Shown here: one piece after another, positions 8,564-39,725 of the stretch
Numbering within the stretch: position 1 is the first letter of the stretch
Layout of the letters: the number at the start of each line of letters is the position of its first letter
From: Variovorax sp.
GTDB taxonomy: Bacteria > Pseudomonadota > Gammaproteobacteria > Burkholderiales > Burkholderiaceae_C
DNA length: 64,000 nucleotides
Direction of reading: 5' to 3'
Assembly (NCBI GenBank): GCA_965218415.1
Contig: CBDCKT010000003.1
Coordinates: forward strand, 1,896,904 to 1,960,903
Position numbers and translations under genes: made by a program
The notes under the pieces: generated by a model
The model's database searches: none
Seen by the model: the letters and a program-made list of their open reading frames with translations, nothing else
Told to the model about the DNA's origin: nothing

Positions 8564-8573
8564 CGCTGCGACT

Positions 8574-9350: not shown

Positions 9351-9367
9351 CGGCGCGTCCGGGTCGG

Positions 9368-9814: not shown

Positions 9815-10377
9815 AACGCGATTCCCTTGGCCTTGAGGGCTTTGCCGAGCGCCCCGACGGCGCGCGAGCAGTGGGTTTTGACGCTCCCCTCCGAGCAGCC
9901 CATGGCGGCCGCCGTTTCGGCGACATCCATCTCTTCCCAATAACGCAGAAGGAAGGCTTCACGTTGACGCGCCGGCAACAAGGCAATTTCGGCCTCGATC
10001 TCGCGGAAAACCTGAGCGCGTCGGGTCGTGTCTTCGGCGCTTTCGGATTCGCGCGAATCGACCGGCGCGTTGTAGCTTTCGAGCAGATTGAAATCGCCAT
10101 CGTCGTCGGCTGGCTCGAAATCGCTCAGGTTCGAGAACAACGCGCGCCGGCTTTTCTGGCGCCGAAACCAGTCGAGCGTGCAGTTCGACAGGATGCGCTG
10201 AAACAGCATCGGCAACTCGCCCGGCGGCTTGGCGCCATAGTGCTCGGCGAGCTTCATCATGCTGTCCTGCACGATGTCGAGTGCGGCTTCCTGGTCGCGC
10301 ACGTGATAGACCGAGCGCTTGAAGGCTCGCTTTTCGACGCTCCTGAGGAAGTCGGAGAGTTCTTGTTCGGTGGCCAA
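9811..10377 (-). CDS. ECF RNA polymerase sigma factor
   Basis: Region 2 (ALDIVQDSMMKL, FQRILSNCTLDWFRR) and region 4 (LPARQREAFLLRYWEEM...SVKTHCSRA); TTG start inferred. Confidence 0.92.
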   Translation of the reverse strand: MATEQELSDFLRSVEKRAFKRSVYHVRDQEAALDIVQDSMMKLAEHYGAKPPGELPMLFQRILSNCTLDWFRRQKSRRALFSNLSDFEPADDDGDFNLLESYNAPVDSRESESAEDTTRRAQVFREIEAEIALLPARQREAFLLRYWEEMDVAETAAAMGCSEGSVKTHCSRAVGALGKALKAKGIAL

Positions 10378-10526
10378 GCGTGAGGTGCGGCGGGTCTCGG
10401 CGCGAAAAACGCGCAACCGCAGGGCGCGTGGTGCGGCGCGAGCGGGGCGGATCGCTTCTGTTCTTCTGTGGAGGCGCGGATTATGGCATCGGGCATCCCG
10501 CTTCAACGCCCATCGGGTTCGGCTTG

Positions 10527-10562
10527 CACGCGCATCACGCGCATCACGCGCATCACGCGCAG
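10527..10562. repeat. 9-bp tandem repeat (cacgcgcat)x4 between the divergent sigma and ilvI genes
   Basis: cacgcgcat cacgcgcat cacgcgcat cacgcgcag. Confidence 0.9.
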
Positions 10563-10768
10563 CAGCGAAGCCGGGGAGGCGCAATGCCATAATTCCGCCT
10601 CGCGGCTCCAGCGGTCGCAATGCGCACAAGCAGACAGCAAACGGATCACGGTCCGGCGGAGCGATCCCTTCCGCCCATGGCCCTGGTCTCAAGTCCTGAC
10701 GCGGTTTCACAAGAGCCGGCAAGGGGCACCGAAGGTTTTTCGTTCCCGAACAAACGCAAAGGTTCATC

Positions 10769-12565
10769 ATGGAAATCTCAAGAGCGGAGCTCTCCTCCGC
10801 GGCCGCCGCATCCAGCGCGATGGCCAGCAATCCCGAACAGAACACCGAAGATTTGATGGGCGCCGAAGTGCTGATCAGGGCGCTTCAAGCCGAAGGCGTC
10901 AAGTACATCTGGGGCTATCCTGGCGGCGCGGTGCTCTACATCTACGACGCGCTCTACAAGCAGGACACTATGCAACATGTGCTGGTGCGCCACGAGCAGG
11001 CGGCGGTGCATGCAGCCGATGGCTACGCGCGTGCGACGGGCGATGTCGGCGTGGCGCTGGTCACGTCCGGGCCGGGGCTGACCAATGCGGTCACGGGGCT
11101 GGCAACCGCTTATATGGATTCGGTTCCAATGGTCGTCATCTCGGGCCAGGTGCCGACGCACGCGATCGGGCTCGATGCGTTTCAGGAGTGCGACACGGTC
11201 GGCATCACGCGGCCGGTGGTCAAACACAACTTCCTGGTCAAGGACGCGCGCGACCTCGCGATGACGATGAAAAAGGCTTTTCACATCGCGCGCACCGGCC
11301 GGCCCGGACCGGTGGTGGTCGATGTGCCGAAGGACGTGTCTTTCAAGAAGGTGCCCTATACCGGCTATCCCGACAAAGTCGAGATGCGCTCGTACAACCC
11401 GGTCAAAAAAGGCCACGGCGGGCAGATTCGCAAGGCGTTGCAACTGCTGCTGAATGCGAAGCGGCCCTACATCTATACCGGCGGCGGCGTGCTTTTGAGC
11501 AATGCTTCCACCGAGTTGCGCAGCTTGGTCGACATGCTCGGCTATCCGGTGACCAACACCTTGATGGGGCTGGGCGCGTATCCGGCGAGCTCTGCGAAGT
11601 TCCTCGGCATGCTCGGCATGCACGGCACGATCGAGGCCAACAACGCGATGCAGAACTGCGACGTGCTGCTGGCCGTAGGCGCCCGATTCGACGACCGGGT
11701 CATCGGCAACCCCAAGCACTTCGCGCAGAACGAACGCAAGATCATCCATATCGACATCGATCCGTCGAGCATCTCGAAGCGGGTCAAGGTCGATATTCCG
11801 ATCGTCGGCGACGTGAAAGACGTGCTCACCGAATTGATCACGATGATCAAGGAATCGGCCGCGAAGCCCGATGCCCATGCCCTCGGCCAATGGTGGAACA
11901 CGATCGAAGCCTGGCGCGGGCGCGATTGCCTCCGATACGACCGCGGCAACAAGGACGTCATCAAGCCGCAGATGGTGGTCGAGACGCTCTGGAACATGAC
12001 CAAGGATGTCGATACCTACATCACGTCCGACGTCGGCCAGCACCAGATGTGGGCCGCGCAGTACTACCGTTTCGACGAGCCGCGCCGCTGGATCAATTCG
12101 GGCGGGCTCGGCACGATGGGCGTCGGCATTCCGTATGCGATGGGCATCAAGTTGGCCAAACCCGAGAGCGAAGTGTTCTGCATTACCGGCGAAGGCTCGG
12201 TCCAGATGTGCATTCAGGAACTGTCGACCTGCTTGCAGTACAACACGCCGATCAAGATCGTTTCGCTCAACAACCGCTACCTCGGCATGGTGCGGCAGTG
12301 GCAGGAAATCGAATACTCGGGCCGCTACAGCCACAGCTACATGGATGCGCTGCCCAACTTCGTGAAGCTCGCCGAAGCCTACGGCCATGTCGGCATGCTG
12401 ATCGAGCGCCCGCAAGACGTCGAGCCGGCATTGCGCGAAGCCCGCAAGCTCAAGGACCGCACCGTGTTCATGGACTTCCGCACCGACCCGACCGAAAACG
12501 TGTTCCCGATGGTCAAGGCGGGAGCGGGCATCACGGAAATGCTGCTGGGCAGCGAAGATCTCTAA
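10769..12565 (+). CDS. ilvI: Acetolactate synthase (AHAS) large subunit
   Basis: GYPGGA, RHEQAA, TSGPG, DVGQHQMW, SGGLGTMG and GEGSVQM motifs. Confidence 0.97.
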   Translation: MEISRAELSSAAAASSAMASNPEQNTEDLMGAEVLIRALQAEGVKYIWGYPGGAVLYIYDALYKQDTMQHVLVRHEQAAVHAADGYARATGDVGVALVTSGPGLTNAVTGLATAYMDSVPMVVISGQVPTHAIGLDAFQECDTVGITRPVVKHNFLVKDARDLAMTMKKAFHIARTGRPGPVVVDVPKDVSFKKVPYTGYPDKVEMRSYNPVKKGHGGQIRKALQLLLNAKRPYIYTGGGVLLSNASTELRSLVDMLGYPVTNTLMGLGAYPASSAKFLGMLGMHGTIEANNAMQNCDVLLAVGARFDDRVIGNPKHFAQNERKIIHIDIDPSSISKRVKVDIPIVGDVKDVLTELITMIKESAAKPDAHALGQWWNTIEAWRGRDCLRYDRGNKDVIKPQMVVETLWNMTKDVDTYITSDVGQHQMWAAQYYRFDEPRRWINSGGLGTMGVGIPYAMGIKLAKPESEVFCITGEGSVQMCIQELSTCLQYNTPIKIVSLNNRYLGMVRQWQEIEYSGRYSHSYMDALPNFVKLAEAYGHVGMLIERPQDVEPALREARKLKDRTVFMDFRTDPTENVFPMVKAGAGITEMLLGSEDL

Positions 12566-12574
12566 TACGAACAG

Positions 12575-12686
12575 CCGAACGCGAAGGACGCGAAAACTAC
12601 GCGAAGGACGCGAAAAACCGAACCGAAAAATCGATTTGGTATTCCTTTTGCGCTCTTCGCGAAACCTTCGCGTCCTTCGCGTTCGG
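12575..12686. repeat. Long REP-like imperfect inverted repeat, family 2 copy A
   Basis: Perfect 20-bp arms ccgaacgcgaaggacgcgaa (12575-12594) and ttcgcgtccttcgcgttcgg (12667-12686), with inner repeated acgcgaaggacgcgaa units. Confidence 0.9.
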
Positions 12687-12727
12687 ATGTCCGATCCCGA
12701 ATTTCAAATCCCAAAGACAAATCTATT

Positions 12728-12770
12728 GCCCGCCAAGCCCGCGCATCACCGTGCGCGGGGGAGGGCGGCG
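12728..12770 (+). promoter_or_regulatory. GC-rich hairpin just upstream of the ilvH RBS, candidate cis-regulatory RNA
   Basis: cccgcgca-tcaccg-tgcgcggg stem with outer ccgcc/ggcgg pairing; AGAGG RBS follows. Confidence 0.45.
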
Positions 12771-12790
12771 AAAAGAGGCGTCGCATCACC

Positions 12791-13282
12791 ATGAAACACA
12801 TCATCGCGGTATTGATCGAGAACGAACCCGGCGCGCTGTCGCGCGTGGTCGGTCTTTTCTCGGCTCGCGGCTACAACATCGAATCGTTGACGGTCGCGCC
12901 GACCGAAGATGCAAGCCTGTCGCGCATGACAATTCAGACGGCGGGCTCCGATGAGGTCATCGAGCAGATCACCAAGCACTTGAACCGGCTGATCGAGGTC
13001 GTGAAGGTGGTCGACCTGACCGAGGGCGCCTACACCGAGCGCGAACTGATGATGGTGAAAGTCCGCGCGGTCGGCAAGGAGCGCGAGGAAATGAAGCGCA
13101 TGGCCGATATTTTTCGCGGCCGCATCATCGACGTGACCGACAAGAGCTACACCATCGAACTCACCGGCGACCATGCCAAGAACGACGCATTCATCGATGC
13201 GATCGAGCGCAGTGCGATTCTGGAAACCGTGCGCACCGGGCCGAGTGGCATCGGACGCGGCGAGCGCGTGCTACGCGTTTAG
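12791..13282 (+). CDS. ilvH: Acetolactate synthase small regulatory subunit
   Basis: ACT domain ENEPGALSRVVGLFSARGYNIESL; 163 aa. Confidence 0.97.
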   Translation: MKHIIAVLIENEPGALSRVVGLFSARGYNIESLTVAPTEDASLSRMTIQTAGSDEVIEQITKHLNRLIEVVKVVDLTEGAYTERELMMVKVRAVGKEREEMKRMADIFRGRIIDVTDKSYTIELTGDHAKNDAFIDAIERSAILETVRTGPSGIGRGERVLRV

Positions 13283-13291
13283 CCCACCTGA

Positions 13292-14335
<1,044 letters not shown>

Positions 14336-26603: not shown

Positions 26604-27482
26604 ATGAGCATGCTGTCACGTAAGTTGCTGACGACAGATGAATCGGGTGCCGCCAACGCGTCACCGCGCCCTGTCGATCCGCTCGGCATCATTGCCGAGC
26701 GGTTGAACCAGATCGCGCAGCACGCCAGCGGCATGGCAGAGCTCGATTCCGGTTTCGTCGAGGCGATTCGACATGTTTCGCGGCTTGCAAACGGGTTGGC
26801 GCCCTACATGGCGGACTGCACGACACCCGAATCCGCTGCGTTGTCGGCGCTCGTCGCGCGCACGCAGTCGACGGATTGGGCAGCCCATTTTTCGCAGGGC
26901 GAGACCACCGTCGCGCTGGAGCAGGAGATGCTCTCGGGCCATGTCGAAGGCCAGTTCCTCAAGTTTCTGGTCGGCGCGATGCGGGCGAAGCGCATTCTCG
27001 AAATCGGGCTCTTCACGGGGTACTCGGCGCTCGCAATGGCCGAAGCCTTGCCAGGGGAAGGCCGCCTGGTCGCCTGCGAGATCGATCCCTTCGCCGCCGA
27101 ATTGGCGCAAAAGGCATTCGATGCGTCGCCGCACGGGCAAAAGATCGAAGTGCATGTCGGCGATGCCGCTCGAACCCTGCAGCGCTTGAACGAAGAAGGA
27201 GCGAGCTTCGACCTGATCTTCATCGACGCCGACAAAGCCGCCTACGGGGCCTACTTCGACATAGTGCTCGGCGGCTCACTGCTCAGCGCACATGGTGCGA
27301 TTTGCGTCGATAACACCTTGATGCAGGGCAGCCCCTGGATGCCCGAGCCGATGACGCCAAACGGATCGGCGATCGCCGAGTTCAATCGCATGGTCAGGGA
27401 CGATGAGAGGGTCGAGCAGGTGTTGATACCGCTTCGGGACGGCTTGACCTTGATTCGCCGCCGCGAATCCGGGGCGCTGTAA
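26604..27482 (+). CDS. mysB: O-methyltransferase of MAA biosynthesis (MysB-like)
   Basis: PVDPLGI N-terminal segment, EQEMLSGHVEGQFL, LEIGLFTGYS, FIDADK, DNTL, PLRDG; cluster context. Confidence 0.9.
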   Translation: MSMLSRKLLTTDESGAANASPRPVDPLGIIAERLNQIAQHASGMAELDSGFVEAIRHVSRLANGLAPYMADCTTPESAALSALVARTQSTDWAAHFSQGETTVALEQEMLSGHVEGQFLKFLVGAMRAKRILEIGLFTGYSALAMAEALPGEGRLVACEIDPFAAELAQKAFDASPHGQKIEVHVGDAARTLQRLNEEGASFDLIFIDADKAAYGAYFDIVLGGSLLSAHGAICVDNTLMQGSPWMPEPMTPNGSAIAEFNRMVRDDERVEQVLIPLRDGLTLIRRRESGAL

Positions 27483-27487
27483 TCCGC

Positions 27488-28894
27488 ATGGCAAGCGATC
27501 TAACCAGAACCGCTGGCGCTATCGGCAATGTCGGCAGCGTCCGCAAGACCGGCGGCGCTCGAATAGTCGCAAAAGATATTGCGACTTTGGCCTTGCTGAC
27601 AGTCGCATTGCCGCTCAATTTGGGGCTCGTCGCGGGAGCTCTGGTCTGGCGCACGTTCCGAAAAGCATTGGGGCGTGACCGCCCGCGCGTGCCCGCGCGC
27701 GAGCCGAAATCGATTCTCATCAGCGGCGGAAAAATGACGAAGGCGCTGCAACTCGCGCGCTCGTTCCACGACGCCGGTCACAGGGTCGTCCTTGTGGAGA
27801 GCCATGACTACTGGCTCATCGGCCACCGTTTTTCGCGCGCGGTCGATCGCTTCTATACGCTGCCCAAATCCGGATCAGCGACCTATGCGCGCGCCTTGCT
27901 CGAGATCGTTCGCCGGGAGCGAATCGATGTGTACGTGCCCGTGTGCAGCCCGGTCGCGAGTCTGCACGATGCGCAGGCCATTGCCGTGCTGGCGCCTTAT
28001 TGCGAAATCATTCATGTCGACTCGACGAAGATCTCGCTGCTCGACGACAAGTACGAGTTTTCGCAAGCGTCCGGAGGAATGCAGCTCTCTGTTCCCCGAA
28101 CTTTCCGGGTCACGTGCGCCGACGACGTATTGCGATTCGATTTTTCCGGCGAGGCGCGGCGCTACATTTTGAAGAGCATCGCCTACGACTCGGTGCGGCG
28201 TCTCGACCTGACGCAGCTTCCAGCCGCGACGCCAGCGCAAACGGCGGATTTTGTGCGCTCGCTTCCGATCTCGGCATCGAACCCCTGGATCCTCCAGGAG
28301 TTCATTCCCGGCAAGGAATTTTGCACGCACGGCACCTTCAAACATGGCGAACTGCGGGTGCATGCCTGTTGTGAATCCTCTGCGTTCCAGATCAATTACA
28401 AGAACGTCGACAAGCCGGCGATCGAGGCGTGGGTCCAGCGGTTCGGTGCAGAACTCGCGCTGACGGGCCAGGCCTCCTTCGATTTCATCGAGGCCGACGA
28501 CGATGGCCGGATCTACGCGATCGAATGCAATCCGAGAACACATTCGGCCATCACGATGTTCTACGACCATCCGGACCTGGCGGACGCTTATCTGGGCGAG
28601 CAGCCGCTGCCGGCCCCGATTCGTCCGCTGGCTTCGAGCCGCCCGACCTATTGGATCTATCACGAGATCTGGCGACTCCTCACGCGCGTGGGGTCGATGG
28701 CCGCCACGCGCGAGCGCCTGCGCATCATCCGCGGAGGCAAGGATGCGGTGTTCGACTGGCGCGACCCGTTGCCGTTTTTGATGCTGCACCACTGGCAGAT
28801 TCCGCTGCTGCTGCTCAGAGATGTGCGCGAGCGGCGCGGCTGGGTCAAGATCGATTTCAATATCGGCAAGCTCGTGCAGTTGGGAGGCGACTGA
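27488..28894 (+). CDS. mysC: ATP-grasp mycosporine-glycine ligase (MysC-like)
   Basis: TLALLTVALPLN, ISGGKMTKALQLARSFH, GHRFSRAVDRFY, ILKSIAYDSVRRLDL, LQEFIPGKEFCTH, IECNPRTHSA, PTYWIYHE and DFNIGKLV, the recognisable MysC signatures. Confidence 0.93.
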   Translation: MASDLTRTAGAIGNVGSVRKTGGARIVAKDIATLALLTVALPLNLGLVAGALVWRTFRKALGRDRPRVPAREPKSILISGGKMTKALQLARSFHDAGHRVVLVESHDYWLIGHRFSRAVDRFYTLPKSGSATYARALLEIVRRERIDVYVPVCSPVASLHDAQAIAVLAPYCEIIHVDSTKISLLDDKYEFSQASGGMQLSVPRTFRVTCADDVLRFDFSGEARRYILKSIAYDSVRRLDLTQLPAATPAQTADFVRSLPISASNPWILQEFIPGKEFCTHGTFKHGELRVHACCESSAFQINYKNVDKPAIEAWVQRFGAELALTGQASFDFIEADDDGRIYAIECNPRTHSAITMFYDHPDLADAYLGEQPLPAPIRPLASSRPTYWIYHEIWRLLTRVGSMAATRERLRIIRGGKDAVFDWRDPLPFLMLHHWQIPLLLLRDVRERRGWVKIDFNIGKLVQLGGD

Positions 28895-28897
28895 GCC

Positions 28898-29941
28898 GTG
28901 CCGCTGCGTCGAATCCTGCACTTGGTCGGCTCGCCGACGAACGATTTCTTTTGCGAGCTTTCCGATGTTTACGCGAGAGCGTGCATCGACGCGCTTCGCG
29001 ATCCGGCGCGCTATGCGTTCGTCATTGCACTTGTCACGCCTGACGGCCTCTGGCGCTTCCCCGAATCGCTCGAACGCGATGCGATCGACGCTTGCGAGCC
29101 TATGACCGTCGGCCCGGCCATCGCCCGCATCATCGGCGAGCGCATCGATCTGGCGCTTCCGCAAATGTTCTGCATGGCGGGAATGACGGCTTACCGCGCG
29201 CTGCTCGACATGCTGAAAATTCCATATCTCGGAAACCCGCCGGCGCAAATGGCGATCGCGGCTGACAAAGCGAAGGCACGGGCGATCGTCGCGAGCGCCG
29301 GCGTGCGCATTCCGCGCGGCGAGTTGCTTCGCGCAGGCGACGCGGTCACGCTGCCACCGCCCCTCGTCATCAAGCCCAATGATTCCGACAACTCCGACGG
29401 GGTTTCGCTCGCGCGCTCCACGCAAGAGGCAGCGGGGTCGTTGCGTGAAGCTTTTTCTTTTTCGGACCGCGTGCTGGTCGAGCAATACATCGAACTCGGG
29501 CGCGAGGTGCGCTGCGGCGTCGTGGTCGAAGGCGGCGAACTGCAATGCCTACCACTCGAAGAGTATTTCGTCGATACCGAAAAAAGGCCGATTCGCACCC
29601 GCGCGAACAAGCTCAGCCGCGATGCGGACAACGGCATGACACTCGCTGCCAAAGAAAGCACGCAGTCCTGGATCGTCGCCACCGACGATCCCATATTTCC
29701 CGCCGTGCGGGATGCTGCGCTGCGGTGCCACGACGCGCTCGGATGCCGGCAGTACAGCCTTTTCGATTTCAGGATCGATCCCGAAGGCAAGCCCTGGTTC
29801 CTGGAAGCGGGGCTTTATTGCTCGTTCTCACCCCAAAGCGTGCTTGCCACGATGATGAGCGCGGCCGGTACGCCGCTCAGTTTGTTTTTCTCCCGGGCAG
29901 TCGAAGAATTGCTGAACGCCGATCCGACGCGGGGCCGCTGA
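28898..29941 (+). CDS. mysD: D-Ala-D-Ala-ligase-like MAA amino-acid ligase (MysD-like)
   Basis: LHLVGS..DFFCELS..YA, LALPQMFC..GMT.YRALLDML, YIELGREVRCG, CLPLEEY, YSLFDFRID and FLEAGLYCSF motifs; GTG start. Confidence 0.9.
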   Translation: MPLRRILHLVGSPTNDFFCELSDVYARACIDALRDPARYAFVIALVTPDGLWRFPESLERDAIDACEPMTVGPAIARIIGERIDLALPQMFCMAGMTAYRALLDMLKIPYLGNPPAQMAIAADKAKARAIVASAGVRIPRGELLRAGDAVTLPPPLVIKPNDSDNSDGVSLARSTQEAAGSLREAFSFSDRVLVEQYIELGREVRCGVVVEGGELQCLPLEEYFVDTEKRPIRTRANKLSRDADNGMTLAAKESTQSWIVATDDPIFPAVRDAALRCHDALGCRQYSLFDFRIDPEGKPWFLEAGLYCSFSPQSVLATMMSAAGTPLSLFFSRAVEELLNADPTRGR

Positions 29942-30048: not shown

Positions 30049-31806
30049 ATGAGCAGCACGGTGCACGGTATTCAAAAGTTCCTCGACCGGTTCGACCATT
30101 CGGCATTGAACGGGGACGATCCGGGGCGCGATCTGATCGGGCTTGTCGCGTCTGAAGATTTCAGGCGCCTGTTGTCGACGCTGGTGGAGGCACCCGCGTT
30201 CTCGAATGCTCTGGGCGAAGAATTCGCTGCCGTCGGTGCGGTCGAAGGGATATCCGCGTGTCGCATGCTGCGCGGCTGCATGAATTTGTCGTTGCGCCGC
30301 TTCATCATGTTGCTGGCGCAGCTCCTGTCGTCGTTCGACAGCGCGCCGGAGAAGCCGGCGGTCGGCCCGGCCTGGAAGCGGTTCGCAGAGCGGATTCAGC
30401 AGGCGGAAGCGCTTCGGGACGAAAAACTCACCGACTACGCCGCTTCGCTTCAAAACGCATCCGACGCGGGGATTTTCTACGAATCGCTCGCGGTGCGGCT
30501 CGAGCAGACGAATCCGCATGCGATCTATCCAACCTCCAACTACCGCGAATCCGACGGCCATGCGGTCAGTACGGCAGACGACCAGACCATCGAAGCGGTG
30601 ATGTCGGTGAGTACCTTTTCGAGCATCAAGATCGTCGATCGGTCGCTCGACCTGGATCAGCCGGTTCTGAAAGATATCTATCAGTCGCTCGGTCGTTGCG
30701 TCTGCCTCGTGGACGAAAGCGTCGAAGCGATTTATGGCGCGCAGCTCGAGCGCTATTTCACGCATCACGACGTGGTGCTGCACAAGCGTGTCTACCGCGC
30801 CATGGAGGCGGACAAGGGAATCCGAACGGTCGAGAAAATGCTGGGCGATTTCAAGGCGCTCGGTGTGTCCCGAAACGAGCCGGTTTTGATCGTCGGTGGC
30901 GGGGTGCTGGCCGACACCGGCGGATTGGCTTGCGCGCTCTATGGCCGCAATACCCCCTATGTGATGCTCGCGACGTCGATAGTCACCGGCATCGATGCCG
31001 GACCGTCACCGCGCACCTGCTGCGATGGATTCGGCTACAAGAATCTGTTCGGCGCGTACCACCCGCCGGTGGTGTCGATCACCGACCGGTACTTTTTCAA
31101 GTCGCTGCACGAAGGCTGGTTGCGTCATGGCATTGCCGAAATCATCAAGATGAGCATCGTCAAGAATGCCGAGCTTTTTGCCGATCTCGAGAAAGCGCAA
31201 GCCGACCTCGTGCGAACGCGATTCGGCACAGTCGAATGCGCCGGCGACGATGCGATTCGGAGCCTTTCGCAGAAAATTCTGGGTGGCGCGCTCAAGTCAT
31301 ATGTGGCGGCGGAATATGACAACTTGTATGAAACCCATCAATGCCGTCCGCACGCGTATGGCCACACCTGGTCGCCAGGTTTCGAGATTGAGGCCGGTCT
31401 CTTGCACGGTCATGCCGTGTCGGTCTGTATGGGATTCGGTGCCTATCTGAGCTTCAGGCTGCAATGGATTGAAAAAAGTGACTTCGAGCGCATCCTTAAA
31501 TTGATCAGTGGTTATGGGTTGAGCCTCTGGCACGAAATTCTCGATCGCAAGGAAACGATCTGGAAAAGCCAGCAGGTCGTGATGCAAAAGCGCGGCCAAA
31601 ACCTCGTGGCACCGCTTCCCAAGAATGCGATCGGCCAATGCGGCTACCTCAACAAGCTGACTCAGGCCGATCTGTATTCGGCTCTGGACGAATACAAGGC
31701 GCTGTGCAAGAGCTACCCCCGAATGGGGCGTGGCATCGATCCGCTGTGCAGCGATGTCGGGCTCGAAGCGCCGTCCACGGTCGGCGCGGCGTTGGTCGAC
31801 GCATGA
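30049..31806 (+). CDS. mysA: Sedoheptulose-7-phosphate cyclase / demethyl-4-deoxygadusol synthase (MysA-like), long form, 585 aa
   Basis: DHQS-like fold: GGGVLADTGG, MLATSIVTGIDAGPSPRTCCDG, KNLFGAYHPP, HGIAEIIKM, CRPHAYGHTWSPGFE, LLHGHAV; start at ATG 30049. Confidence 0.88.
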   Translation: MSSTVHGIQKFLDRFDHSALNGDDPGRDLIGLVASEDFRRLLSTLVEAPAFSNALGEEFAAVGAVEGISACRMLRGCMNLSLRRFIMLLAQLLSSFDSAPEKPAVGPAWKRFAERIQQAEALRDEKLTDYAASLQNASDAGIFYESLAVRLEQTNPHAIYPTSNYRESDGHAVSTADDQTIEAVMSVSTFSSIKIVDRSLDLDQPVLKDIYQSLGRCVCLVDESVEAIYGAQLERYFTHHDVVLHKRVYRAMEADKGIRTVEKMLGDFKALGVSRNEPVLIVGGGVLADTGGLACALYGRNTPYVMLATSIVTGIDAGPSPRTCCDGFGYKNLFGAYHPPVVSITDRYFFKSLHEGWLRHGIAEIIKMSIVKNAELFADLEKAQADLVRTRFGTVECAGDDAIRSLSQKILGGALKSYVAAEYDNLYETHQCRPHAYGHTWSPGFEIEAGLLHGHAVSVCMGFGAYLSFRLQWIEKSDFERILKLISGYGLSLWHEILDRKETIWKSQQVVMQKRGQNLVAPLPKNAIGQCGYLNKLTQADLYSALDEYKALCKSYPRMGRGIDPLCSDVGLEAPSTVGAALVDA

Positions 31807-31849: not shown

Positions 31850-32545
31850 ATGCCCAAATCCGCTTTGATGTTCGGCTCGATCGGGAGCATCGTCGAAAGC
31901 TCCGACATCCAGCGACGCGCTTACAACCAGGCACTGAAAGAAGCCGGCCTCGACTGGGAATGGGATCGCGACACCTATGCCGAACTGCTCAACCAGTCCG
32001 GCGGCAAGGAAAGGTTGTCGATGCTCGCCTCGGCGACCCACGCGGCGTTGTCTGCCGAAAAAATCGAAAGAATTCATGCGCGCAAGACCGAGATTGCATG
32101 CGAAGAGCTTGTTTCAAAAGGCATCAAGCTCAGGCCAGGCGTTTCGGAATTGATCAAGTTTGCCAAAGGCCAAGGCACGAAGCTGGCTTTCGTCACCAGC
32201 ACGTATCAGCCGAATATCGACGCGATCTTCGAGGCGGCAGGGGCCGCGCTGGCGGCCAGCGACTTCGACTACATCGGTTCTCGCAGCGATGTGACGCAAG
32301 GCAAGCCGGCGCCCGACGCTTATCTGAACGCGCTCGCGAAGCTCGGCGTATCGGCAGCGGATGCGGTTGCGGTCGAAGACACGGCCAACAGCGTTATGTC
32401 GGCCAAGCGCGCCGGACTGTTCGTGATCGCGACGCCCGGCGAAGTCACCGCCAACCAGGATTTCTGGCAAGCCGATCTGCTTGCCGGCAGCTTGCTGGGC
32501 CCCGACGGCGCACTCGATCCGCGCGTTCGGGCATCGCTTCAATAA
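31850..32545 (+). CDS. HAD-IA/CbbY-like protein with non-canonical motif I
   Basis: MFGSIGSIVESS replaces DxDGT; GGKERL, LRPGV, FVTST, KPAPDAY and AVEDT motifs; AGGAG RBS. Confidence 0.8.
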   Translation: MPKSALMFGSIGSIVESSDIQRRAYNQALKEAGLDWEWDRDTYAELLNQSGGKERLSMLASATHAALSAEKIERIHARKTEIACEELVSKGIKLRPGVSELIKFAKGQGTKLAFVTSTYQPNIDAIFEAAGAALAASDFDYIGSRSDVTQGKPAPDAYLNALAKLGVSAADAVAVEDTANSVMSAKRAGLFVIATPGEVTANQDFWQADLLAGSLLGPDGALDPRVRASLQ

Positions 32546-32547
32546 GC

Positions 32548-33327
32548 ATGCAGCCGACGCCTCTTGCGCCGTTCGGAGCGCAAGTACACGGGTTGGACCT
32601 TCGTGCGGCTTCCAGCCGACAGATGGCCGAAATCGCATTTCTGATTGCGAGCGCCAGAGTGGTGGTTTTCCGCGGCCAGCAGGCCGACGATGCCCAGTTC
32701 GTTCGCTTCCTTCGCGGGCTCGGCAGGCTCACGTTCACGCGCGGTGAGACGCCGGTAGAAGGCGCGCCGGATCTGAACATCGTGACGAACCTGGGGCGGT
32801 CAACGCCGCCACGCAGCGTCTTTCACACCGATTCGAGCTACATGGCAAGCCCGCCCTCATTCACTGCGCTTCGCCCGGCGCAGTTGCCGAATGCGGGCGG
32901 GCAGACCCTGTTTTCAGACCAGGTTCGGGTGGCCAGCGAGTTGACACCCGCCGTCAGGCGATGGCTCGCGGGGCGACGCGTGCTGCATCGGTCGACCGGG
33001 ATCGACAGGGAAACCGAATCGCACTGGCATCCACTTTTCCGTCGTCATCCATTGACGGGCGAAACCGCGTTGTTTTTGTCGACGCCGCAGCGCTGCGTCG
33101 AACTCAGCGGCGCCGATCGAGCGACCGCGCAGCGCGTGATCGGCGCGTTGTACCGACGCAGCACCCGGCCTTCGAGGCTCTATCGCCATCGATGGCAAGC
33201 CGGCGACATACTTGTTTGGGACAACCGCGTGACGATGCACCGCGCCGATCATGCGGACGTCTCGGGCGCACGCGTGCTGCATCGTGGCATGGTGGCTGGA
33301 GAGGTTCCGCAAGCTGCCACAGAGTAG
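32548..33327 (+). CDS. TauD/TfdA family Fe(II)/2-oxoglutarate dioxygenase
   Basis: PFGAQVHGLDL, VVVFRGQ, FHTDSSY (HxD), GGQTLFSD, HPLFRRHPLTGE, WQAGDILVWDNR..MHR and RVLHR motifs. Confidence 0.92.
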   Translation: MQPTPLAPFGAQVHGLDLRAASSRQMAEIAFLIASARVVVFRGQQADDAQFVRFLRGLGRLTFTRGETPVEGAPDLNIVTNLGRSTPPRSVFHTDSSYMASPPSFTALRPAQLPNAGGQTLFSDQVRVASELTPAVRRWLAGRRVLHRSTGIDRETESHWHPLFRRHPLTGETALFLSTPQRCVELSGADRATAQRVIGALYRRSTRPSRLYRHRWQAGDILVWDNRVTMHRADHADVSGARVLHRGMVAGEVPQAATE

Positions 33328-36177: not shown

Positions 36178-36473
36178 GTTTTTCCTTGAGGCGCTGGTTG
36201 AGCTGAGTTGGTAGATATCGTTGTTCGAACAGCGCCACTGTTCAATCAGTGACCGCTTTTCGAAACGACCCGGTAATGGTCTCGCCAAAGCACTGGTCGA
36301 TAAAAACTAGAACAGCGCGATATTTAGGTCAACTGCCCCAATTCGGGCTGTTTTGCGCCGGCGAGCTGCTTATTCTTCCGGGGCTACCTGCGTTTGCGCG
36401 CGGCGCTTGGGGTTGCAACCCGGTGGCAAGCCTCGCGAGCCCACGTATGCTCGCACCTACGAGGAGAACGCCC

Positions 36474-39400
36474 ATGTCCGGTCATAACCCGCTTCATCCC
36501 ATTCCGCACCCGCCGCGCAAACCGATCGTCGGCAACCTGCTGTCGATCGGCTCGGATTCGCCCGTGCTCGACATGTGGAAGATCGCGCGCGATCTCGGCG
36601 GTATTTTCTGGCTCGACATGCCGGGCATGCCGGTGATCGTGGTTTCTTCGCCGGCGTTGGTCGACGAACTCTGCGACGAAAAGCGCTTCGACAAAAGCAC
36701 GCGCGGCGCATTGCGGCGGTTGCGCGCGGCATCGCATGGGCTTTTCACGTCGGACACCGACGAGCCGACCTGGTCGAAGCCGCACAACATCTTGCTGGCC
36801 AACTTCAGCCAGCGCGCGATGCAGGCCTATCACCCGATGATGCTCGACATCGCGAACCAGCTGGTTACCAAATGGGAGCGGCTCAATTTCGACGACCAGG
36901 TCGATGTCACGCGCGACATGACGGCACTCACGCTCGACACGATCGGATTGTGCGGTTTCGGCTACCGCTTCAATTCTTTTTATCGCGAGGGCTTTCATCC
37001 GTTCGTCGACGCGATGGTGCGCACGCTCGAGACGGTGCAGGACCGGCGCGGCCTGCCGCTCGAAGAGCTGATGATGAAAAAGCAGCTGACCCAGCAGCGC
37101 AAGGACATCCGCTACATGCACCGGATGGTCGAGGACATCATCAAGGAGCGTCGCGATAGCGGCGCCGACATCGCGACCCGGCCCGACTTGCTCAGCTACA
37201 TGATCGCTGGTGTCGACAAGAAGAGCGGCGAAAAGCTCGACGACAAGATGATCCGCGACGAGTGCATCGAGTTCCTGATCGCGGGGCACGAGACGACCAG
37301 CGGTTTGCTCTCGTTCGCAATGTACTACCTCGTCAAAAACCCTGAAATTCTCGCGAAGGCGCAGGCCGAAGTCGACACCGTGTTCGGCACCGATCTGGCC
37401 GTTGAGCCGACCTATGCGCAGGTCAATCGGCTGCAATACATCCAGCAAATTCTCAAGGAAGCGCTTCGGATGTACCCCACGGCGCCGGCCATCGCCAAGC
37501 GCGCGCTCGAGGACACGACGATCGGTGGGCAGTACACGATCAAGAAGCGCAACCTCGTGATCCTGCATGCGCTCGCATTGCACCGCGACAAGGCCGTCTG
37601 GGGCGAGGACGCCGACGAGTTCAACCCCGAGCATTTCAGCCGCGAGGCCGAACGCGCCTTGCCGCCGAATGCCTACAAGCCTTTCGGCACCGGGCAGCGC
37701 TCGTGCATCGGGCGCCAGTTTGCGTTGCAGGAGGCGACGCTCACGCTTGCGATGGTGCTGCAGCGTTTCGACTTGATCGACCACACCGACTACAAGCTGA
37801 AGGTGAAAGAAGCGCTCACGATCAAGCCGGAGCATTTTCATATTCAGGTGCGGCTACGCGAGGCGGTTGGCCGATCACCGGCTGCGCGTGCGCCCGCCGG
37901 CGCCGGTTCAGCGTCGGCGTCCGGTGATGCGCAGGCGCAGAGCGCGGTCGCATCGACCGCCGCGCCGCGCCACGGAACGCCGTTGCTGGTGCTGCACGGC
38001 TCGAACCTCGGCACCGCCGAAGACCTCGCGCGCCAGGTGGCGGAAGAGGGCACAGCACGCGGCTTCGCGGCCGAACTCGCGTCGCTCGACGACTTCGCGG
38101 GCACCTTGCCGGTGGCAGGCGCAGTCGTGATCGTGAGCGCCTCGTACAACGGCGTGGCGCCCGACAACGCAGGCGGCTTCGTGCGCTGGCTGAGCGACAC
38201 CGACGCCGCGTTGAAGGGCGTGAACTACAGCGTGTTCGGTTGCGGCAACAGCGATTGGGCCGCGACCTACCAGTCGGTGCCGCGAGCGATCGACGAGAAA
38301 TTGGCCGCGCTAGGCGCGCACCGGATGATGGAGCGCGGCGAGGGCGATGCGCGTGAAGACATGGACGGCGCATTCCAGAGCTGGTTCGGGGCGCTGTGGC
38401 CTGCCCTCGGCCAGACATTGAGCATCGCTGTCGATGCCGCAGGCGGGCGCAGCGAGCCATTGCTGCTAATCGAGGATGTCGCGCCCGCGGGCGTGCTTTC
38501 GCCTGCGGTCGCGCAAGGTTTCAGCCGGCTCATGGTGGCCGTGAACAGCGAATTACAGAGTTCGGCCGAACATGGCGAAGGCGCCGCTGCGACCGATGCA
38601 CGTTCGACCCGCCATGTCGAGTTCGCGCTGCCCGAAGGCATGCGCTATCGCGCGGGCGACCATCTGAGCGTGGCGCCGCGCAACAGCGACTGGATGGTCG
38701 AGCGCGTGATGGCCCGTTTCGGCCTTGCGCGCGACGCACACGTGCGGCTGCGAACCGCGGCCGGCCGCAAGACATTTCTTCCGACCGACCAACCCATCGC
38801 AGTTCGCCGCTTGCTCGGCGAATTCGTCGAACTGCAGGACGTCGCGAGCCGCAAGAGCATTGCGGCGCTGGCAGAACACACCCCATGCCCGGTCACGCGC
38901 GGCAGGCTCGAGGCACTGACCGGTACCAGCGACGAGGCATCGAAGCTCTACAAGTCCGAGGTGCTGCAAAAGCGCAAGTCGGTGTTCGACCTGCTCGACG
39001 AATTTCCGGCTGCCGCGCCGCCCTTCGGTGCAGTGCTGGAAACGCTCGCACCGCTCGCGCCGCGGTATTACTCGATCTCGTCGTCGCCGTTGGCCGATCC
39101 CGCGCGGCTCGCAATCACGGTCGGCGTGGTCGCCGGCAAGGCGCGCTGCGGCGTCGGCGAGTTCGAAGGCGTTTGCTCGAACCATGTGCAGCGGATGCAA
39201 AGCGGCGATGCGGTTCATGCGCTGGTGCGCGAGCCGACCGTCGCATTCCGGCTACCCGACGACCCAATGCGGCCGCTCATCATGGTCGGGCCGGGCACCG
39301 GACTCGCGCCGTTCCGCGCCTTTTTGCAGGAGCGCGAAGCATTGCAAAAAGCCGGCACCGCGCTCGGGCCTGCGATGCTGTTCTTCGGCTGCCGCCATCC

Positions 39401-39725
39401 CCGCGAGGACTTCATCTATGCCGACCAGTTGCAGGGCTGGGCCGATGCTGGGTTGGTGCAGCTCTTCACCGCGTTTTCGCGTGAAAGCAAGCGCAAGGTT
39501 TATGTGCAGGACCTGATGCGCGAGCAATCCGAAGCAGTCTGGAAGCTGATCGATGCCGACGCTGTGATCTACATTTGCGGCGACGGCTCCCGCATGGAAC
39601 CCGATGTGCGGCGCACGCTCGGCGAAATCGCGCGCACGGTCGGGCAGGTGGCCGATCCGGAGCAGTGGATCGAGAAAATGATCGCCCACGATCGCTATGT
39701 CACGGATGTGTGGACGGGAAATTGA
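36474..39725 (+). CDS. Self-sufficient cytochrome P450/NADPH-P450 reductase fusion (CYP102, BM3-like)
   Basis: AGHETT, EALR and FGTGQRSCIG heme motifs; flavodoxin GSNLGTAE and FGCGNSDW; FAD/NADPH motifs RYYSISS, GPGTGLAPF, FFGCR, YICGDG. Confidence 0.96.
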   Translation: MSGHNPLHPIPHPPRKPIVGNLLSIGSDSPVLDMWKIARDLGGIFWLDMPGMPVIVVSSPALVDELCDEKRFDKSTRGALRRLRAASHGLFTSDTDEPTWSKPHNILLANFSQRAMQAYHPMMLDIANQLVTKWERLNFDDQVDVTRDMTALTLDTIGLCGFGYRFNSFYREGFHPFVDAMVRTLETVQDRRGLPLEELMMKKQLTQQRKDIRYMHRMVEDIIKERRDSGADIATRPDLLSYMIAGVDKKSGEKLDDKMIRDECIEFLIAGHETTSGLLSFAMYYLVKNPEILAKAQAEVDTVFGTDLAVEPTYAQVNRLQYIQQILKEALRMYPTAPAIAKRALEDTTIGGQYTIKKRNLVILHALALHRDKAVWGEDADEFNPEHFSREAERALPPNAYKPFGTGQRSCIGRQFALQEATLTLAMVLQRFDLIDHTDYKLKVKEALTIKPEHFHIQVRLREAVGRSPAARAPAGAGSASASGDAQAQSAVASTAAPRHGTPLLVLHGSNLGTAEDLARQVAEEGTARGFAAELASLDDFAGTLPVAGAVVIVSASYNGVAPDNAGGFVRWLSDTDAALKGVNYSVFGCGNSDWAATYQSVPRAIDEKLAALGAHRMMERGEGDAREDMDGAFQSWFGALWPALGQTLSIAVDAAGGRSEPLLLIEDVAPAGVLSPAVAQGFSRLMVAVNSELQSSAEHGEGAAATDARSTRHVEFALPEGMRYRAGDHLSVAPRNSDWMVERVMARFGLARDAHVRLRTAAGRKTFLPTDQPIAVRRLLGEFVELQDVASRKSIAALAEHTPCPVTRGRLEALTGTSDEASKLYKSEVLQKRKSVFDLLDEFPAAAPPFGAVLETLAPLAPRYYSISSSPLADPARLAITVGVVAGKARCGVGEFEGVCSNHVQRMQSGDAVHALVREPTVAFRLPDDPMRPLIMVGPGTGLAPFRAFLQEREALQKAGTALGPAMLFFGCRHPREDFIYADQLQGWADAGLVQLFTAFSRESKRKVYVQDLMREQSEAVWKLIDADAVIYICGDGSRMEPDVRRTLGEIARTVGQVADPEQWIEKMIAHDRYVTDVWTGN

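What the first reader, a model, noticed from the sequence alone, without database searches (positions are those of the whole stretch)
32548..33327. TauD-family dioxygenase as a candidate new MAA tailoring enzyme
It starts 2 nt after the HAD stop and has an intact HxD...H triad and 2OG-binding Arg. The known MAA oxygenase MysH, which makes palythines by oxidative decarboxylation, belongs to the PhyH family. A TauD/TfdA-fold enzyme here could be a convergent palythine synthase or make an unreported MAA (inference).
Basis: partly seen in the sequence, partly recalled or inferred. Interest (0 to 1): 0.72.

Follow-up and report, generated by a model that had tools for sequence, protein, structure and literature searches.

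The report
Sunscreen-cluster TauD oxygenase with dead-phosphatase partner
This gene encodes an iron/2-oxoglutarate oxygenase that belongs to a mycosporine-like amino acid (UV sunscreen) gene cluster and probably trims an amino-acid arm off the sunscreen to make palythine-type pigments. That idea is already in print but untested. What is new here is that its constant partner is a catalytically dead phosphatase, and that the pair also sits beside uptake genes in bacteria that cannot make the sunscreen.

Summary
ORF 32548-33327 (+) encodes a 259-aa TauD/TfdA Fe(II)/2OG dioxygenase (Pfam E 1e-46). Its H93-x-D95...H231 triad, T120, R242 and R246 are intact, and it starts 2 nt after the HAD stop. 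It is the last gene of a six-gene block: mysB, mysC, mysD, a long mysA (DDGS type), HAD-like, TauD.

It is not a taurine enzyme. It scores far below NCBI's TauD cut-off, TauD's taurine-binding residues are replaced, and it falls in a separate clade (100/100 support) whose members always sit beside the HAD-like gene. Thirteen of 19 readable loci, from five phyla, carry mysABCD.

GATOR-GC (2025) reported conserved HAD and TauD/TfdA genes in non-cyanobacterial MAA clusters. It cited unpublished palythine production from a Rhodococcus operon. MysI is a separate cyanobacterial TauD-type candidate.

Three points go beyond the finding:
- The HAD partner is a CbbY homologue with its DxDGT motif replaced by GSIGS in all 12 orthologues.
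- Sphingomonadales genomes lacking MysA and MysC keep the HAD-TauD pair, mostly beside TonB receptors and MFS/SSF transporters.
- The cluster is absent from all 60 sampled relatives.

Most likely function: alpha-hydroxylation and N-dealkylation of a disubstituted MAA, giving a palythine. No biochemistry supports this yet.

The parts
26604..27482 (+). mysB-type O-methyltransferase (292 aa)
   Evidence: Pfam Methyltransf_3 E 1.2e-53. Orthologues at 50-63% identity lie in the related clusters.
27488..28894 (+). mysC-type ATP-grasp ligase (468 aa), with an extra roughly 70-aa N-terminus containing a hydrophobic stretch
   Evidence: NCBIfam PRK06849 scores 466.9 bits against a cut-off of 406, over residues 71-463. 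Orthologues are 55-70% identical. No homologue exists in 60 relatives.
28898..29941 (+). mysD-type D-Ala-D-Ala-ligase-like enzyme (347 aa, GTG start)
   Evidence: Pfam Dala_Dala_lig_C E 5.5e-15. Orthologues are 50-66% identical.
30049..31806 (+). mysA: DDGS-type sugar-phosphate cyclase, long form (585 aa), with an N-terminal extension of about 130-150 aa and unknown fold
   Evidence: The best solved relative is Anabaena DDGS 5tpr (E 7e-72, query 195-564), ahead of EEVS ValA 4p53 (E 4.5e-47). The first 200 aa have no Pfam hit. The extension is conserved in 581-585-aa orthologues.
31850..32545 (+). HAD-like protein (231 aa): a CbbY-type fold with the catalytic motif I lost (pseudo-phosphatase), constant partner of the TauD
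   Evidence: Pfam HAD_2/Hydrolase E 1.7e-20. Closest structure is CbbY 4uar/4uat, E 3.7e-39, where CbbY FDVDGT aligns to FGSIGS. GSIG/GSIS replaces DxDG in all 12 orthologues.
32548..33327 (+). TauD/TfdA-family Fe(II)/2OG oxygenase (259 aa), the finding itself
   Evidence: Clade and context evidence.

Best explanation
The gene encodes a functional Fe(II)/2-oxoglutarate oxygenase of the TauD/TfdA fold that is dedicated to mycosporine-like amino acids (MAAs), not to taurine. MysA (DDGS type), MysB, MysC and MysD build a disubstituted MAA of the shinorine, porphyra-334 or mycosporine-2-glycine type.

The oxygenase then most likely hydroxylates the alpha-carbon of one amino-acid substituent (N-CH(R)-COO-). 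The resulting carbinolamine collapses by itself, releasing glyoxylate (or another 2-oxo acid) and leaving an NH on the ring. The product would be a palythine-type MAA with absorbance shifted from about 334 nm to about 320 nm.

This is the same logic as the solved family members TauD, AtsK, TfdA, RdpA and AAD-1: hydroxylation next to a heteroatom, followed by spontaneous elimination. It works together with the adjacent HAD-like protein, which cannot be a phosphatase and probably serves as a non-catalytic ligand-binding or scaffolding partner.

Shown here: the fold, the intact cofactor site, a substrate pocket that differs from TauD, clade identity, the conserved linkage to HAD and mys genes, and the dead HAD motif. 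Inferred: the substrate, the site of attack, the product and any physical TauD-HAD interaction.
For: - **Active site and fold.** Intact active site and confident TauD fold.
- **Not a taurine enzyme.** NCBIfam taurine dioxygenase equivalog scores 116.9 bits against a cut-off of 313. The TauD taurine-binding positions H70/Y73/N95 are T64/E67/R89 here. E67, R84, R109, R143, R182, C183, D234 and H235 are invariant in the clade and rare in generic TauDs.
- **Separate clade.** All homologues of at least 46% identity form one clade (100/100, stem length 1.44) apart from generic TauDs at 34% identity or less.
- **Conserved context.** Every clade member with readable flanks has the HAD-like gene. Thirteen of 19 have mysABCD: the window, L001, L003, L004, L007, L010, L011, L023, L095-L098 and L114. 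These span Pseudomonadota, Vulcanimicrobiota/Eremiobacterota, Planctomycetota and Actinomycetota, in several gene orders.
- **Only family member in the genome.** It is the only PF02668 gene in this 4.19-Mb genome. The whole cluster is absent from 36 congeners and 24 other families of the order, so it travels as a unit.
- **Literature.** HAD and TauD are conserved in MAA clusters, and a Rhodococcus fascians D188 operon carrying them gave shinorine, palythine and palythine-serine in S. coelicolor (abstract cited in PMC11888242). MysH is proposed to alpha-hydroxylate the glycyl arm and release glyoxylate (PMC10666671).
- **Acts on finished MAAs.** The pair also occurs beside uptake genes in genomes with no MAA core genes. 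This argues that it acts on a finished MAA-like molecule rather than supplying a precursor.
Against: - No enzyme of this clade has a published assay. The only product data are a conference abstract, for an actinobacterial operon whose TauD is about 46-49% identical to this one.
- Similarity to characterised family members is flat, about 26-34% to TauD, RdpA, AtsK and PlaO1, so chemistry cannot be read from homology.
- TauD-fold enzymes in natural-product pathways also carry out non-hydroxylating reactions, for example PlaO1 lactone formation and ScoE isonitrile formation (named).
- The universal need for a dead HAD partner is not explained by a simple MysH-like reaction; MysH works alone.
- Standalone HAD-TauD pairs in MAA-less genomes could mean that the true substrate is something other than an MAA.
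Confidence: 0.55

Rival explanations
1. The enzyme tailors the MAA oxidatively but not by N-dealkylation. It could install a stable hydroxyl, or perform desaturation or oxidative decarboxylation of the Ser/Thr/Gly arm. That would give amino-alcohol or enamine-type MAAs (asterina, palythinol, palythene or usujirene-like) or a so far unreported MAA.
For: The cluster linkage is the same as for the best explanation. The TauD family includes oxidative decarboxylases and rearranging enzymes: ScoE hits, PlaO1. The many clade-specific pocket residues show a substrate pocket unlike any characterised member.
Against: The only product report for an operon with this pair lists palythines. The group of solved structures closest in fold (TauD, AtsK, RdpA, AAD-1) all perform hydroxylation followed by elimination next to a heteroatom.
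Confidence: 0.18
2. The HAD-TauD pair is primarily an MAA turnover or salvage module. It strips amino-acid arms from MAAs as the first step of recycling or catabolism. In this cluster it would serve remodelling or degradation of the cell's own or imported sunscreen, rather than making a dedicated end product.
For: Four Sphingomonadales genomes carry the pair at 55-67% (HAD) and 60-63% (TauD) identity, with all catalytic residues, but have no MysC and no MysA-type cyclase. In L006/L093, L009, L008, L112 and L113 a TonB-dependent receptor is the direct neighbour. These receptors are of three distant or unrelated types, and MFS or SSF transporters lie next to them in L093, L009 and L113. L115 has an SSF transporter, a cupin and SnoaL proteins. 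L112 adds a FAD monooxygenase, an FMO/BVMO-like enzyme, an HpcH aldolase, a MetE-like protein and a LacI regulator. In the tree, the window's TauD is sister to this transporter-linked subclade (96/98).
Against: In the window and 12 other loci the pair is embedded in, or abuts, the biosynthetic genes, with tight spacing (2-nt gap). No transporter or catabolic genes flank it here. TonB receptors are very common in Sphingomonadales, so some adjacency is expected by chance. Most of the MAA-less genomes are MAGs; G061 is a complete chromosome.
Confidence: 0.15
3. The pair works upstream of MAA assembly. It could modify a free amino acid for MysD, or act on or sense a sugar phosphate related to sedoheptulose-7-phosphate supply, with the CbbY-like protein binding the phosphate ester.
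For: The HAD-like protein keeps motifs II-IV (VTST, GKP, EDT) of a sugar-bisphosphate phosphatase and lies directly after mysA.
Against: The pair persists in genomes without any cyclase, MysC or (mostly) MysD, where a precursor-supply role would be pointless. The actinobacterial gene order separates HAD and TauD around mysA-mysB. No known TauD-group enzyme uses sugar phosphates.
Confidence: 0.08
4. It is an ordinary taurine/alkylsulfonate dioxygenase for sulfur scavenging that merely lies next to the MAA genes.
For: The best NCBIfam name is taurine dioxygenase, and JGI annotations of homologues say the same. It is the only TauD-family gene in the genome.
Against: The score is 116.9 against a cut-off of 313. 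The taurine-binding residues are replaced. It belongs to a separate clade. No tau or ssu neighbours are seen in any of 19 loci. The linkage to HAD and mys genes is conserved across phyla.
Confidence: 0.02

Closest known systems
HAD + TauD/TfdA genes of non-cyanobacterial MAA clusters (GATOR-GC, Pseudonocardia alni reference window; Rhodococcus fascians D188 operon of Osborn & Mahmud 2018, as cited in PMC11888242)
   Same: The same two Pfam families are embedded in mysA/B/C/D clusters. The actinobacterial cluster members sampled here (L011, L023, P0127-P0246) are 46-53% identical and monophyletic with the window's protein. The proposed role is the same: palythine formation by C-N cleavage.
   Different: This example is from a Burkholderiales-like proteobacterium, with gene order mysB-C-D-A-HAD-TauD, adjacent and tightly spaced HAD and TauD, and a long MysA. 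In the actinobacterial loci the order is HAD-mysA-mysB-TauD-mysC-mysD with a cyclase of about 400 aa. The papers read here do not mention that the HAD lacks its catalytic aspartates or that the pair occurs without mys genes.
MysH (Nostoc linckia NIES-25), the characterised palythine-forming Fe/2OG oxygenase
   Same: The cofactor class and the proposed reaction are the same: alpha-hydroxylation of the glycyl arm, then release of glyoxylate and a palythine (PMC10666671). Both sit in an mysABCD cluster.
   Different: MysH is a phytanoyl-CoA-dioxygenase-type enzyme. This protein hits only PF02668. MysH works without a HAD-like partner and is cyanobacterial.
MysI (Nostoc sp. UHCC 0926), a TauD/TfdA-family dioxygenase proposed to form the palythine structure
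   Same: The annotation is the same broad family, and the convergent-palythine idea is the same (PMC10510106).
   Different: MysI is 363 aa, plasmid-borne and co-clusters with mysF (methyltransferase) and mysE (NRPS). This protein is 259 aa, pairs with a HAD-like gene and has no mysF or mysE nearby. GATOR-GC found the HAD/TauD pair absent from Cyanobacteriota.
TauD, AtsK, TfdA/RdpA/AAD-1 (solved group of small-molecule Fe/2OG dioxygenases)
   Same: The fold matches at TM 0.85-0.92, with the same metal triad and the same 2OG-binding Thr and Arg. The shared chemical logic is hydroxylation next to S, O or N followed by spontaneous elimination. TfdA and RdpA attack an X-CH(R)-COO- unit like the MAA amino-acid arm (family knowledge).
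   Different: Identity is only 26-34%. The protein is shorter (259 against 280-300 aa). Substrate-contact residues are replaced by a clade-specific set. The genomic context is different.
CbbY xylulose-1,5-bisphosphate phosphatase (for the partner protein)
   Same: It is the best solved relative, E 3.7e-39 over the full length, and motifs II-IV are retained.
   Different: The motif I nucleophile and the general acid/base aspartates are Gly and Ile (FGSIGS) in all orthologues, so phosphatase chemistry is not expected.

Membership tests
TauD/TfdA Fe(II)/2OG dioxygenase superfamily (PF02668) | Pfam domain above the gathering score | tested here: met
   160.5 bits against 27, E 1e-46, residues 4-247
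TauD/TfdA Fe(II)/2OG dioxygenase superfamily (PF02668) | HxD...H facial triad plus 2OG-binding Thr and Arg | tested here: met
   H93, D95, H231, T120 and R242 align to TauD H99, D101, H255, T126 and R266. All are invariant in 71 homologues.
TauD/TfdA Fe(II)/2OG dioxygenase superfamily (PF02668) | Double-stranded beta-helix fold of the TauD group | tested here: met
   AF2 pLDDT 94.9. Foldseek TM 0.85-0.92 to 1os7, 6edh, 5bkc, 1oih and 7qtd.
Taurine dioxygenase TauD sensu stricto (NCBIfam NF007104 equivalog) | Score above the curated equivalog cut-off | tested here: not met
   116.9 bits against a cut-off of 313
Taurine dioxygenase TauD sensu stricto (NCBIfam NF007104 equivalog) | Taurine-contact residues (H70, Y73, N95 of E. 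coli TauD) | tested here: not met
   They align to T64, E67 and R89. Generic W98 is F92 throughout the clade.
Taurine dioxygenase TauD sensu stricto (NCBIfam NF007104 equivalog) | Sulfonate-utilisation gene context (tauABC/ssu) | tested here: not met
   No such neighbours in the window or in 18 related loci
MAA-cluster HAD/TauD pair (GATOR-GC 2025) | Co-location with mysA, mysB, mysC (and mysD) | tested here: met
   The window carries mysB-C-D-A-HAD-TauD. Thirteen of 19 related loci do likewise.
MAA-cluster HAD/TauD pair (GATOR-GC 2025) | Co-occurring HAD-family gene | tested here: met
   Present in every related locus with readable flanks
MAA-cluster HAD/TauD pair (GATOR-GC 2025) | Common descent with the actinobacterial cluster TauDs | tested here: met
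   A single clade at 100/100, with actinobacterial and Gram-negative subclades. The R. fascians and P. alni proteins themselves were not in hand.
MAA-cluster HAD/TauD pair (GATOR-GC 2025) | Conversion of disubstituted MAAs to palythines | not testable with these tools
   This needs expression and LC-MS. The only support is an abstract cited in PMC11888242.
MysH (PhyH-type palythine synthase) | Phytanoyl-CoA dioxygenase (PhyH) domain | tested here: not met
   The only Pfam hit is PF02668
MysI (cyanobacterial TauD/TfdA-type) | Sequence membership in the MysI clade | not testable with these tools
   No MysI sequence could be fetched. The plasmid tblastn gave only generic TauDs at or below 36% identity in the 25 records listed.
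MysI (cyanobacterial TauD/TfdA-type) | Protein of about 360 aa co-clustered with mysF and mysE | tested here: not met
   259 aa here. The neighbours are HAD and mysABCD, with no methyltransferase/NRPS pair.
HAD phosphatases (partner protein 31850-32545) | Motif I DxDx(T/V) with the nucleophilic Asp | tested here: not met
   FGSIGS aligns to CbbY FDVDGT. GSIG/GSIS is found in all 12 orthologues. The Pfam HAD_2 match starts at profile position 7.

The most novel reading that the evidence does not exclude
The dead-HAD + TauD pair is a self-contained, mobile two-protein module that removes amino-acid arms from MAAs. In producers it makes palythines. In MAA non-producing Sphingomonadales it is wired to TonB-dependent receptors and MFS/SSF transporters, and in one locus to a BVMO-like oxygenase, an aldolase and a LacI regulator. 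There it would process imported MAAs. That would be the first genetic handle on bacterial MAA salvage ('sunscreen piracy') or catabolism, with the pseudo-phosphatase acting as the substrate-binding subunit.
Probability: 0.22. Interest if true: 0.7.

Novelty: new member of a known kind. Interest (0 to 1): 0.42.

Why it matters
Palythine-type MAAs absorb at shorter wavelengths than shinorine-type MAAs and are wanted as natural sunscreen ingredients. Only MysH has experimental support (heterologous expression) for making them.

A compact 259-aa TauD-type enzyme found in hundreds of non-cyanobacterial clusters would be a second or third independent route, and a useful part for pathway engineering. 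It would also explain which MAAs heterotrophic bacteria from high-light or cold habitats make.

First, the partner is a pseudo-phosphatase, so it should be co-expressed and tested as a binding partner, not assayed as a phosphatase. Second, the pair also exists in uptake-linked loci of non-producers, which opens the untouched question of how MAAs are taken up, reused or degraded in microbial communities.

For this particular window, the finding is another member of a cluster type that is already described but not yet characterised.

Tried and rejected
- **Comparison with MysI.** No sequence was obtainable. The supplement gives only locus tag and length, and the plasmid tblastn returned only generic TauDs at or below 36% identity in the records listed.
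- **Mapping an empty insertion site in congeners.** The upstream aldolase has 67-76% identical orthologues in the genus, but none of the other window flank genes lies within 10 kb of it in three congeners. The boundaries of the acquired block could not be defined.
- **Promoter and terminator scan of the cluster.** It gave 0 promoter-like sites, and the terminator-like count was no higher than in shuffled sequence (10 against 8.1 expected). This was uninformative.
- **Full-length MysA structure, to identify the N-terminal extension.** The model was poor (pLDDT 59.8, 7-sequence alignment). It was not taken to fold search because low-confidence models give meaningless matches.
- **Organism name.** It is withheld by the tools. 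Megablast to plasmids/chromids gives only about 77-78% hits to Burkholderia and Paraburkholderia over one gene. The report therefore says Burkholderiales-like and no more.
- **Base composition as a sign of foreign origin.** The cluster is 59-65% GC against 63.5% for the window. The difference is not distinctive.
- **Earlier scan notes.** There were none on this genome or on this sequence.
- **Model coordinates.** They were not available in the Python box, so clade-specific residues were mapped through the TauD sequence alignment rather than in 3D.
Full report
**1. The observation**

The ORF at 32548-33327 on the + strand translates to 259 residues without a stop. The preceding HAD ORF ends with TAA at 32543-32545 and the ATG follows at 32548, so the 2-nt spacing is real.

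Pfam gives a single, strong TauD (PF02668) match: E 1e-46, residues 4-247. Alignment to E. coli TauD (1gqw) gives these correspondences:

| This protein | E. coli TauD | Role in TauD (family knowledge) |
|---|---|---|
| H93 | H99 | metal triad |
| D95 | D101 | metal triad |
| H231 | H255 | metal triad |
| T120 | T126 | 2OG binding |
| R242 | R266 | 2OG binding |
| R246 | R270 | substrate anion |

All of these residues are invariant in a 71-sequence alignment of homologues. An AlphaFold2 model built on that alignment has mean pLDDT 94.9. It superposes on TauD, RdpA, AAD-1, AtsK and PlaO1 structures with TM-scores of 0.85-0.92.

The source genome's own call starts at M26 (234 aa). Homologues align from residue 1. 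P8 and G10 are nearly invariant. Residues 2-14 form confident strands in the model.

**2. The surroundings**

Six genes lie on the + strand with short gaps:

| Coordinates | Gene | Main evidence |
|---|---|---|
| 26604-27482 | O-methyltransferase (MysB type) | |
| 27488-28894 | ATP-grasp ligase (MysC type) | passes NCBIfam PRK06849, |
| 28898-29941 | D-Ala-D-Ala-ligase-like enzyme (MysD type) | |
| 30049-31806 | 585-aa sugar-phosphate cyclase | best solved relative is Anabaena DDGS 5tpr (E 7e-72), ahead of the EEVS ValA |
| 31850-32545 | 231-aa HAD-like protein | |
| 32548-33327 | TauD | |

This is a complete mysABCD sunscreen cluster with two extra genes.

The flanks look unrelated to MAAs. 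Upstream are a molybdenum hydroxylase, a 2-hydroxyacid dehydrogenase and a class II aldolase, the last two divergently transcribed from the cluster. Downstream are a convergent alpha/beta hydrolase, a phasin-like gene and a P450-reductase fusion.

This is the only PF02668 gene in the 4.19-Mb genome. Neither a TauD orthologue (best 36% identity) nor any MysC homologue exists in 36 genomes of the same genus or in 24 other families of the order. The block was therefore acquired as a unit. An empty site could not be mapped because the flanks are not syntenic in congeners. Base composition is not distinctive.

**3. Relatives**

A scan of one genome per species found twelve loci whose TauD is 46-70% identical. 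After a sharp gap came generic TauDs at 34% identity or less. The relatives come from Candidatus Lustribacter (Vulcanimicrobiota), Polaromonas, Janthinobacterium, Sphingomonas, Sandarakinorhabdus, other Sphingomonadales, Planctomycetota, Jatrophihabitans and Nocardioides.

A maximum-likelihood tree of 124 sequences puts all of them in one clade with 100/100 support on a long stem. It also includes 80 metagenomic and actinobacterial homologues. The clade is separate from 33 generic TauDs. It has an actinobacterial subclade and a mainly Gram-negative subclade that holds the window.

Every member whose flanks can be read has the HAD-like gene. Counting these loci plus eight looked up in metagenome assemblies:

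- **Thirteen of 19 carry mysA, B, C and D next to the pair**, in at least four different gene orders.
- **None lies in a sulfonate-utilisation locus.**

In addition, the protein scores 116.9 bits against the 313-bit cut-off of NCBI's taurine dioxygenase model. The TauD residues that hold taurine (H70, Y73, N95) are T64, E67 and R89 here. A set of clade-invariant residues (E67, R84, S90, F92, R109, Q125, R143, R182, C183, D234, H235, G247) is absent from generic TauDs.

**4. What is already known**

The idea is not new.

- The GATOR-GC paper (PMC11888242) reports HAD and TauD/TfdA as two conserved, previously undescribed genes of MAA clusters in Actinomycetota, Pseudomonadota and Bacillota, but not in Cyanobacteriota.
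- That paper cites a 2018 meeting abstract in which the Rhodococcus fascians D188 operon containing HAD and TauD gave shinorine, palythine and palythine-serine in S. coelicolor. It suggests a MysH-like C-N cleavage.
- Arsin et al. (PMC10510106) named a cyanobacterial TauD/TfdA-family enzyme MysI and proposed that palythine formation arose convergently with MysH.
- MysI is 363 aa and clusters with mysF and mysE. It looks like a different recruitment from the 259-aa HAD-linked enzyme here, but the two sequences could not be compared directly.
- For MysH, a review proposes alpha-hydroxylation of the glycyl arm followed by hydrolysis to a palythine and glyoxylate (PMC10666671).
- Further literature searches found no published assay of the HAD-linked TauD.

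**5. The partner is a dead phosphatase**

The HAD-like protein's closest solved relative is CbbY, the xylulose-1,5-bisphosphate phosphatase (E 3.7e-39, full length). Where CbbY has FDVDGT, this protein has FGSIGS. The same loss (GSIG or GSIS) is seen in all twelve orthologues from four phyla, while motifs II-IV (VTST/VTTT, GKP, EDT/EDN) are kept.

The nucleophilic aspartate is indispensable in this superfamily (established knowledge). A conserved replacement therefore means a conserved non-catalytic role, probably ligand binding or partnership with the oxygenase.

It was checked independently here. In Gram-negative loci the two genes are adjacent or overlap (spacing from +5 nt to a 4-nt overlap). 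In the two actinobacterial loci they are separated by mysA-mysB but still co-occur.

**6. The pair without the pathway**

Four Sphingomonadales genomes, one of them a complete chromosome, carry the HAD-TauD pair with every catalytic and clade-specific residue intact. They have no MysC homologue at all and only housekeeping AroB at about 30% identity. Their contexts, and those of three related metagenomic loci, are as follows.

| Locus | Neighbours of the HAD-TauD pair |
|---|---|
| L006/L093, L009 | TonB-dependent receptor directly adjacent, then an MFS transporter |
| L008 | an unrelated TonB receptor, divergent from the pair |
| L113 | TonB receptor and sodium:solute symporter (SSF), next to rhodopsin and carotenoid-cleavage genes |
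| L112 | a distant TonB receptor, a FAD monooxygenase, an FMO/BVMO-like enzyme, an HpcH aldolase, a MetE-like protein and a LacI regulator |
| L115 | an SSF transporter, a cupin and SnoaL proteins |
| L005 | a MysD-like ligase, a glycosyltransferase and an ABC exporter, with no MysA or MysC in the genome |

These uptake-linked members form the sister group of the window's protein (96/98).

TonB receptors are common in this order and most of these genomes are MAGs, so this is suggestive rather than proven. It does argue that the pair acts on a finished, transportable molecule. It also raises the possibility of MAA salvage or catabolism by non-producers.

**7. Mechanism**

The best-supported reading has four steps:

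- MysABCD assemble a disubstituted MAA.
- The TauD-type enzyme hydroxylates the alpha-carbon of one N-linked amino-acid arm.
- The carbinolamine collapses to a 2-oxo acid and a palythine-type product.
- The pseudo-phosphatase assists, by an unknown mechanism.

This matches the chemistry of the structurally closest enzymes, which hydroxylate next to S or O and let the product fall apart (plus family knowledge). TfdA and RdpA do so on an X-CH(R)-COO- unit. It also matches the only product report.

Confidence differs between the two claims. That this is an MAA-dedicated oxygenase is very likely. The specific N-dealkylation is rated at about 0.55, because there is no assay, identity to characterised enzymes is only about 30%, and TauD-fold enzymes in natural-product pathways also do other chemistry. 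The rivals are other oxidative tailoring, a turnover or salvage role, a precursor-level role, and a coincidental taurine enzyme. The last is essentially excluded.

**8. Verdict**

- The gene is a new member (Burkholderiales-like host, horizontally acquired) of a cluster type that is described but biochemically uncharacterised.
- The dead HAD partner and the uptake-linked standalone pairs are the parts worth following up.

Noticed in passing
window 30049-31806 (+): The MysA cyclase is 585 aa, about 130-150 aa longer at the N-terminus than Anabaena DDGS. The extension has no Pfam hit and is predicted all-helical at moderate confidence. It is conserved in 581-585-aa orthologues of the Gram-negative clusters but absent from the actinobacterial ones (about 400 aa). 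Its function is unknown.
   Followed up: partly
window 27488-27700 (+): The MysC-type ATP-grasp enzyme has about 70 extra N-terminal residues, including the hydrophobic stretch IATLALLTVALPLNLGLVAGALVW. This may be a membrane anchor. The NCBIfam model covers only residues 71-463.
   Followed up: no
window 31850-32545 (+): The HAD-like gene is a CbbY homologue whose DxDGT motif reads GSIGS. The loss is conserved in all 12 orthologues examined, so it is a pseudo-phosphatase kept under selection.
   Followed up: yes
L093 10794-14511; L009 7122-11099; L008 7058-9250; L112 5610-8297; L113 2459-6575; L115 2860-4479: In Sphingomonadales-type loci without mys genes, the HAD-TauD pair sits next to TonB-dependent receptors of three distant or unrelated types and to MFS or SSF transporters. 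L112 also has a FAD monooxygenase, a BVMO-like enzyme, an HpcH aldolase, a MetE-like protein and LacI, which looks like a catabolic operon.
   Followed up: partly
L092 10771-11868; L095 9870-10934; L096 9845-10921: A GT1/GT4 glycosyltransferase directly follows the TauD in three related loci but not in the window. This suggests glycosylated MAA products in those organisms.
   Followed up: no
L092 (G061) 8217-14097: A complete Sphingomonas chromosome carries a MysD-like ligase (62% identical), HAD, TauD, a glycosyltransferase and a MacB/FtsX ABC system. It has no MysA-type cyclase or MysC anywhere, so this is a partial cluster with no obvious source of substrate.
   Followed up: partly
window 36249-39725 (+): There is a self-sufficient P450-flavodoxin-FAD/NAD reductase fusion (CYP102/BM3-like architecture, 1158 aa) 3 kb downstream of the cluster. 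No link to the MAA genes was seen.
   Followed up: no
whole genome G000 vs congeners: The genome is 4.19 Mb, while most of 36 same-genus genomes are 5-9 Mb. Its aldolase orthologues are only 67-76% identical to those of congeners, and local gene order is not conserved. This is a divergent, smaller member of its genus that alone carries the MAA cluster.
   Followed up: partly
window 32548-32622: The gene call stored for the source genome starts at M26 (234 aa). Homologue alignment and the structure model support the upstream ATG at 32548 (259 aa).
   Followed up: yes
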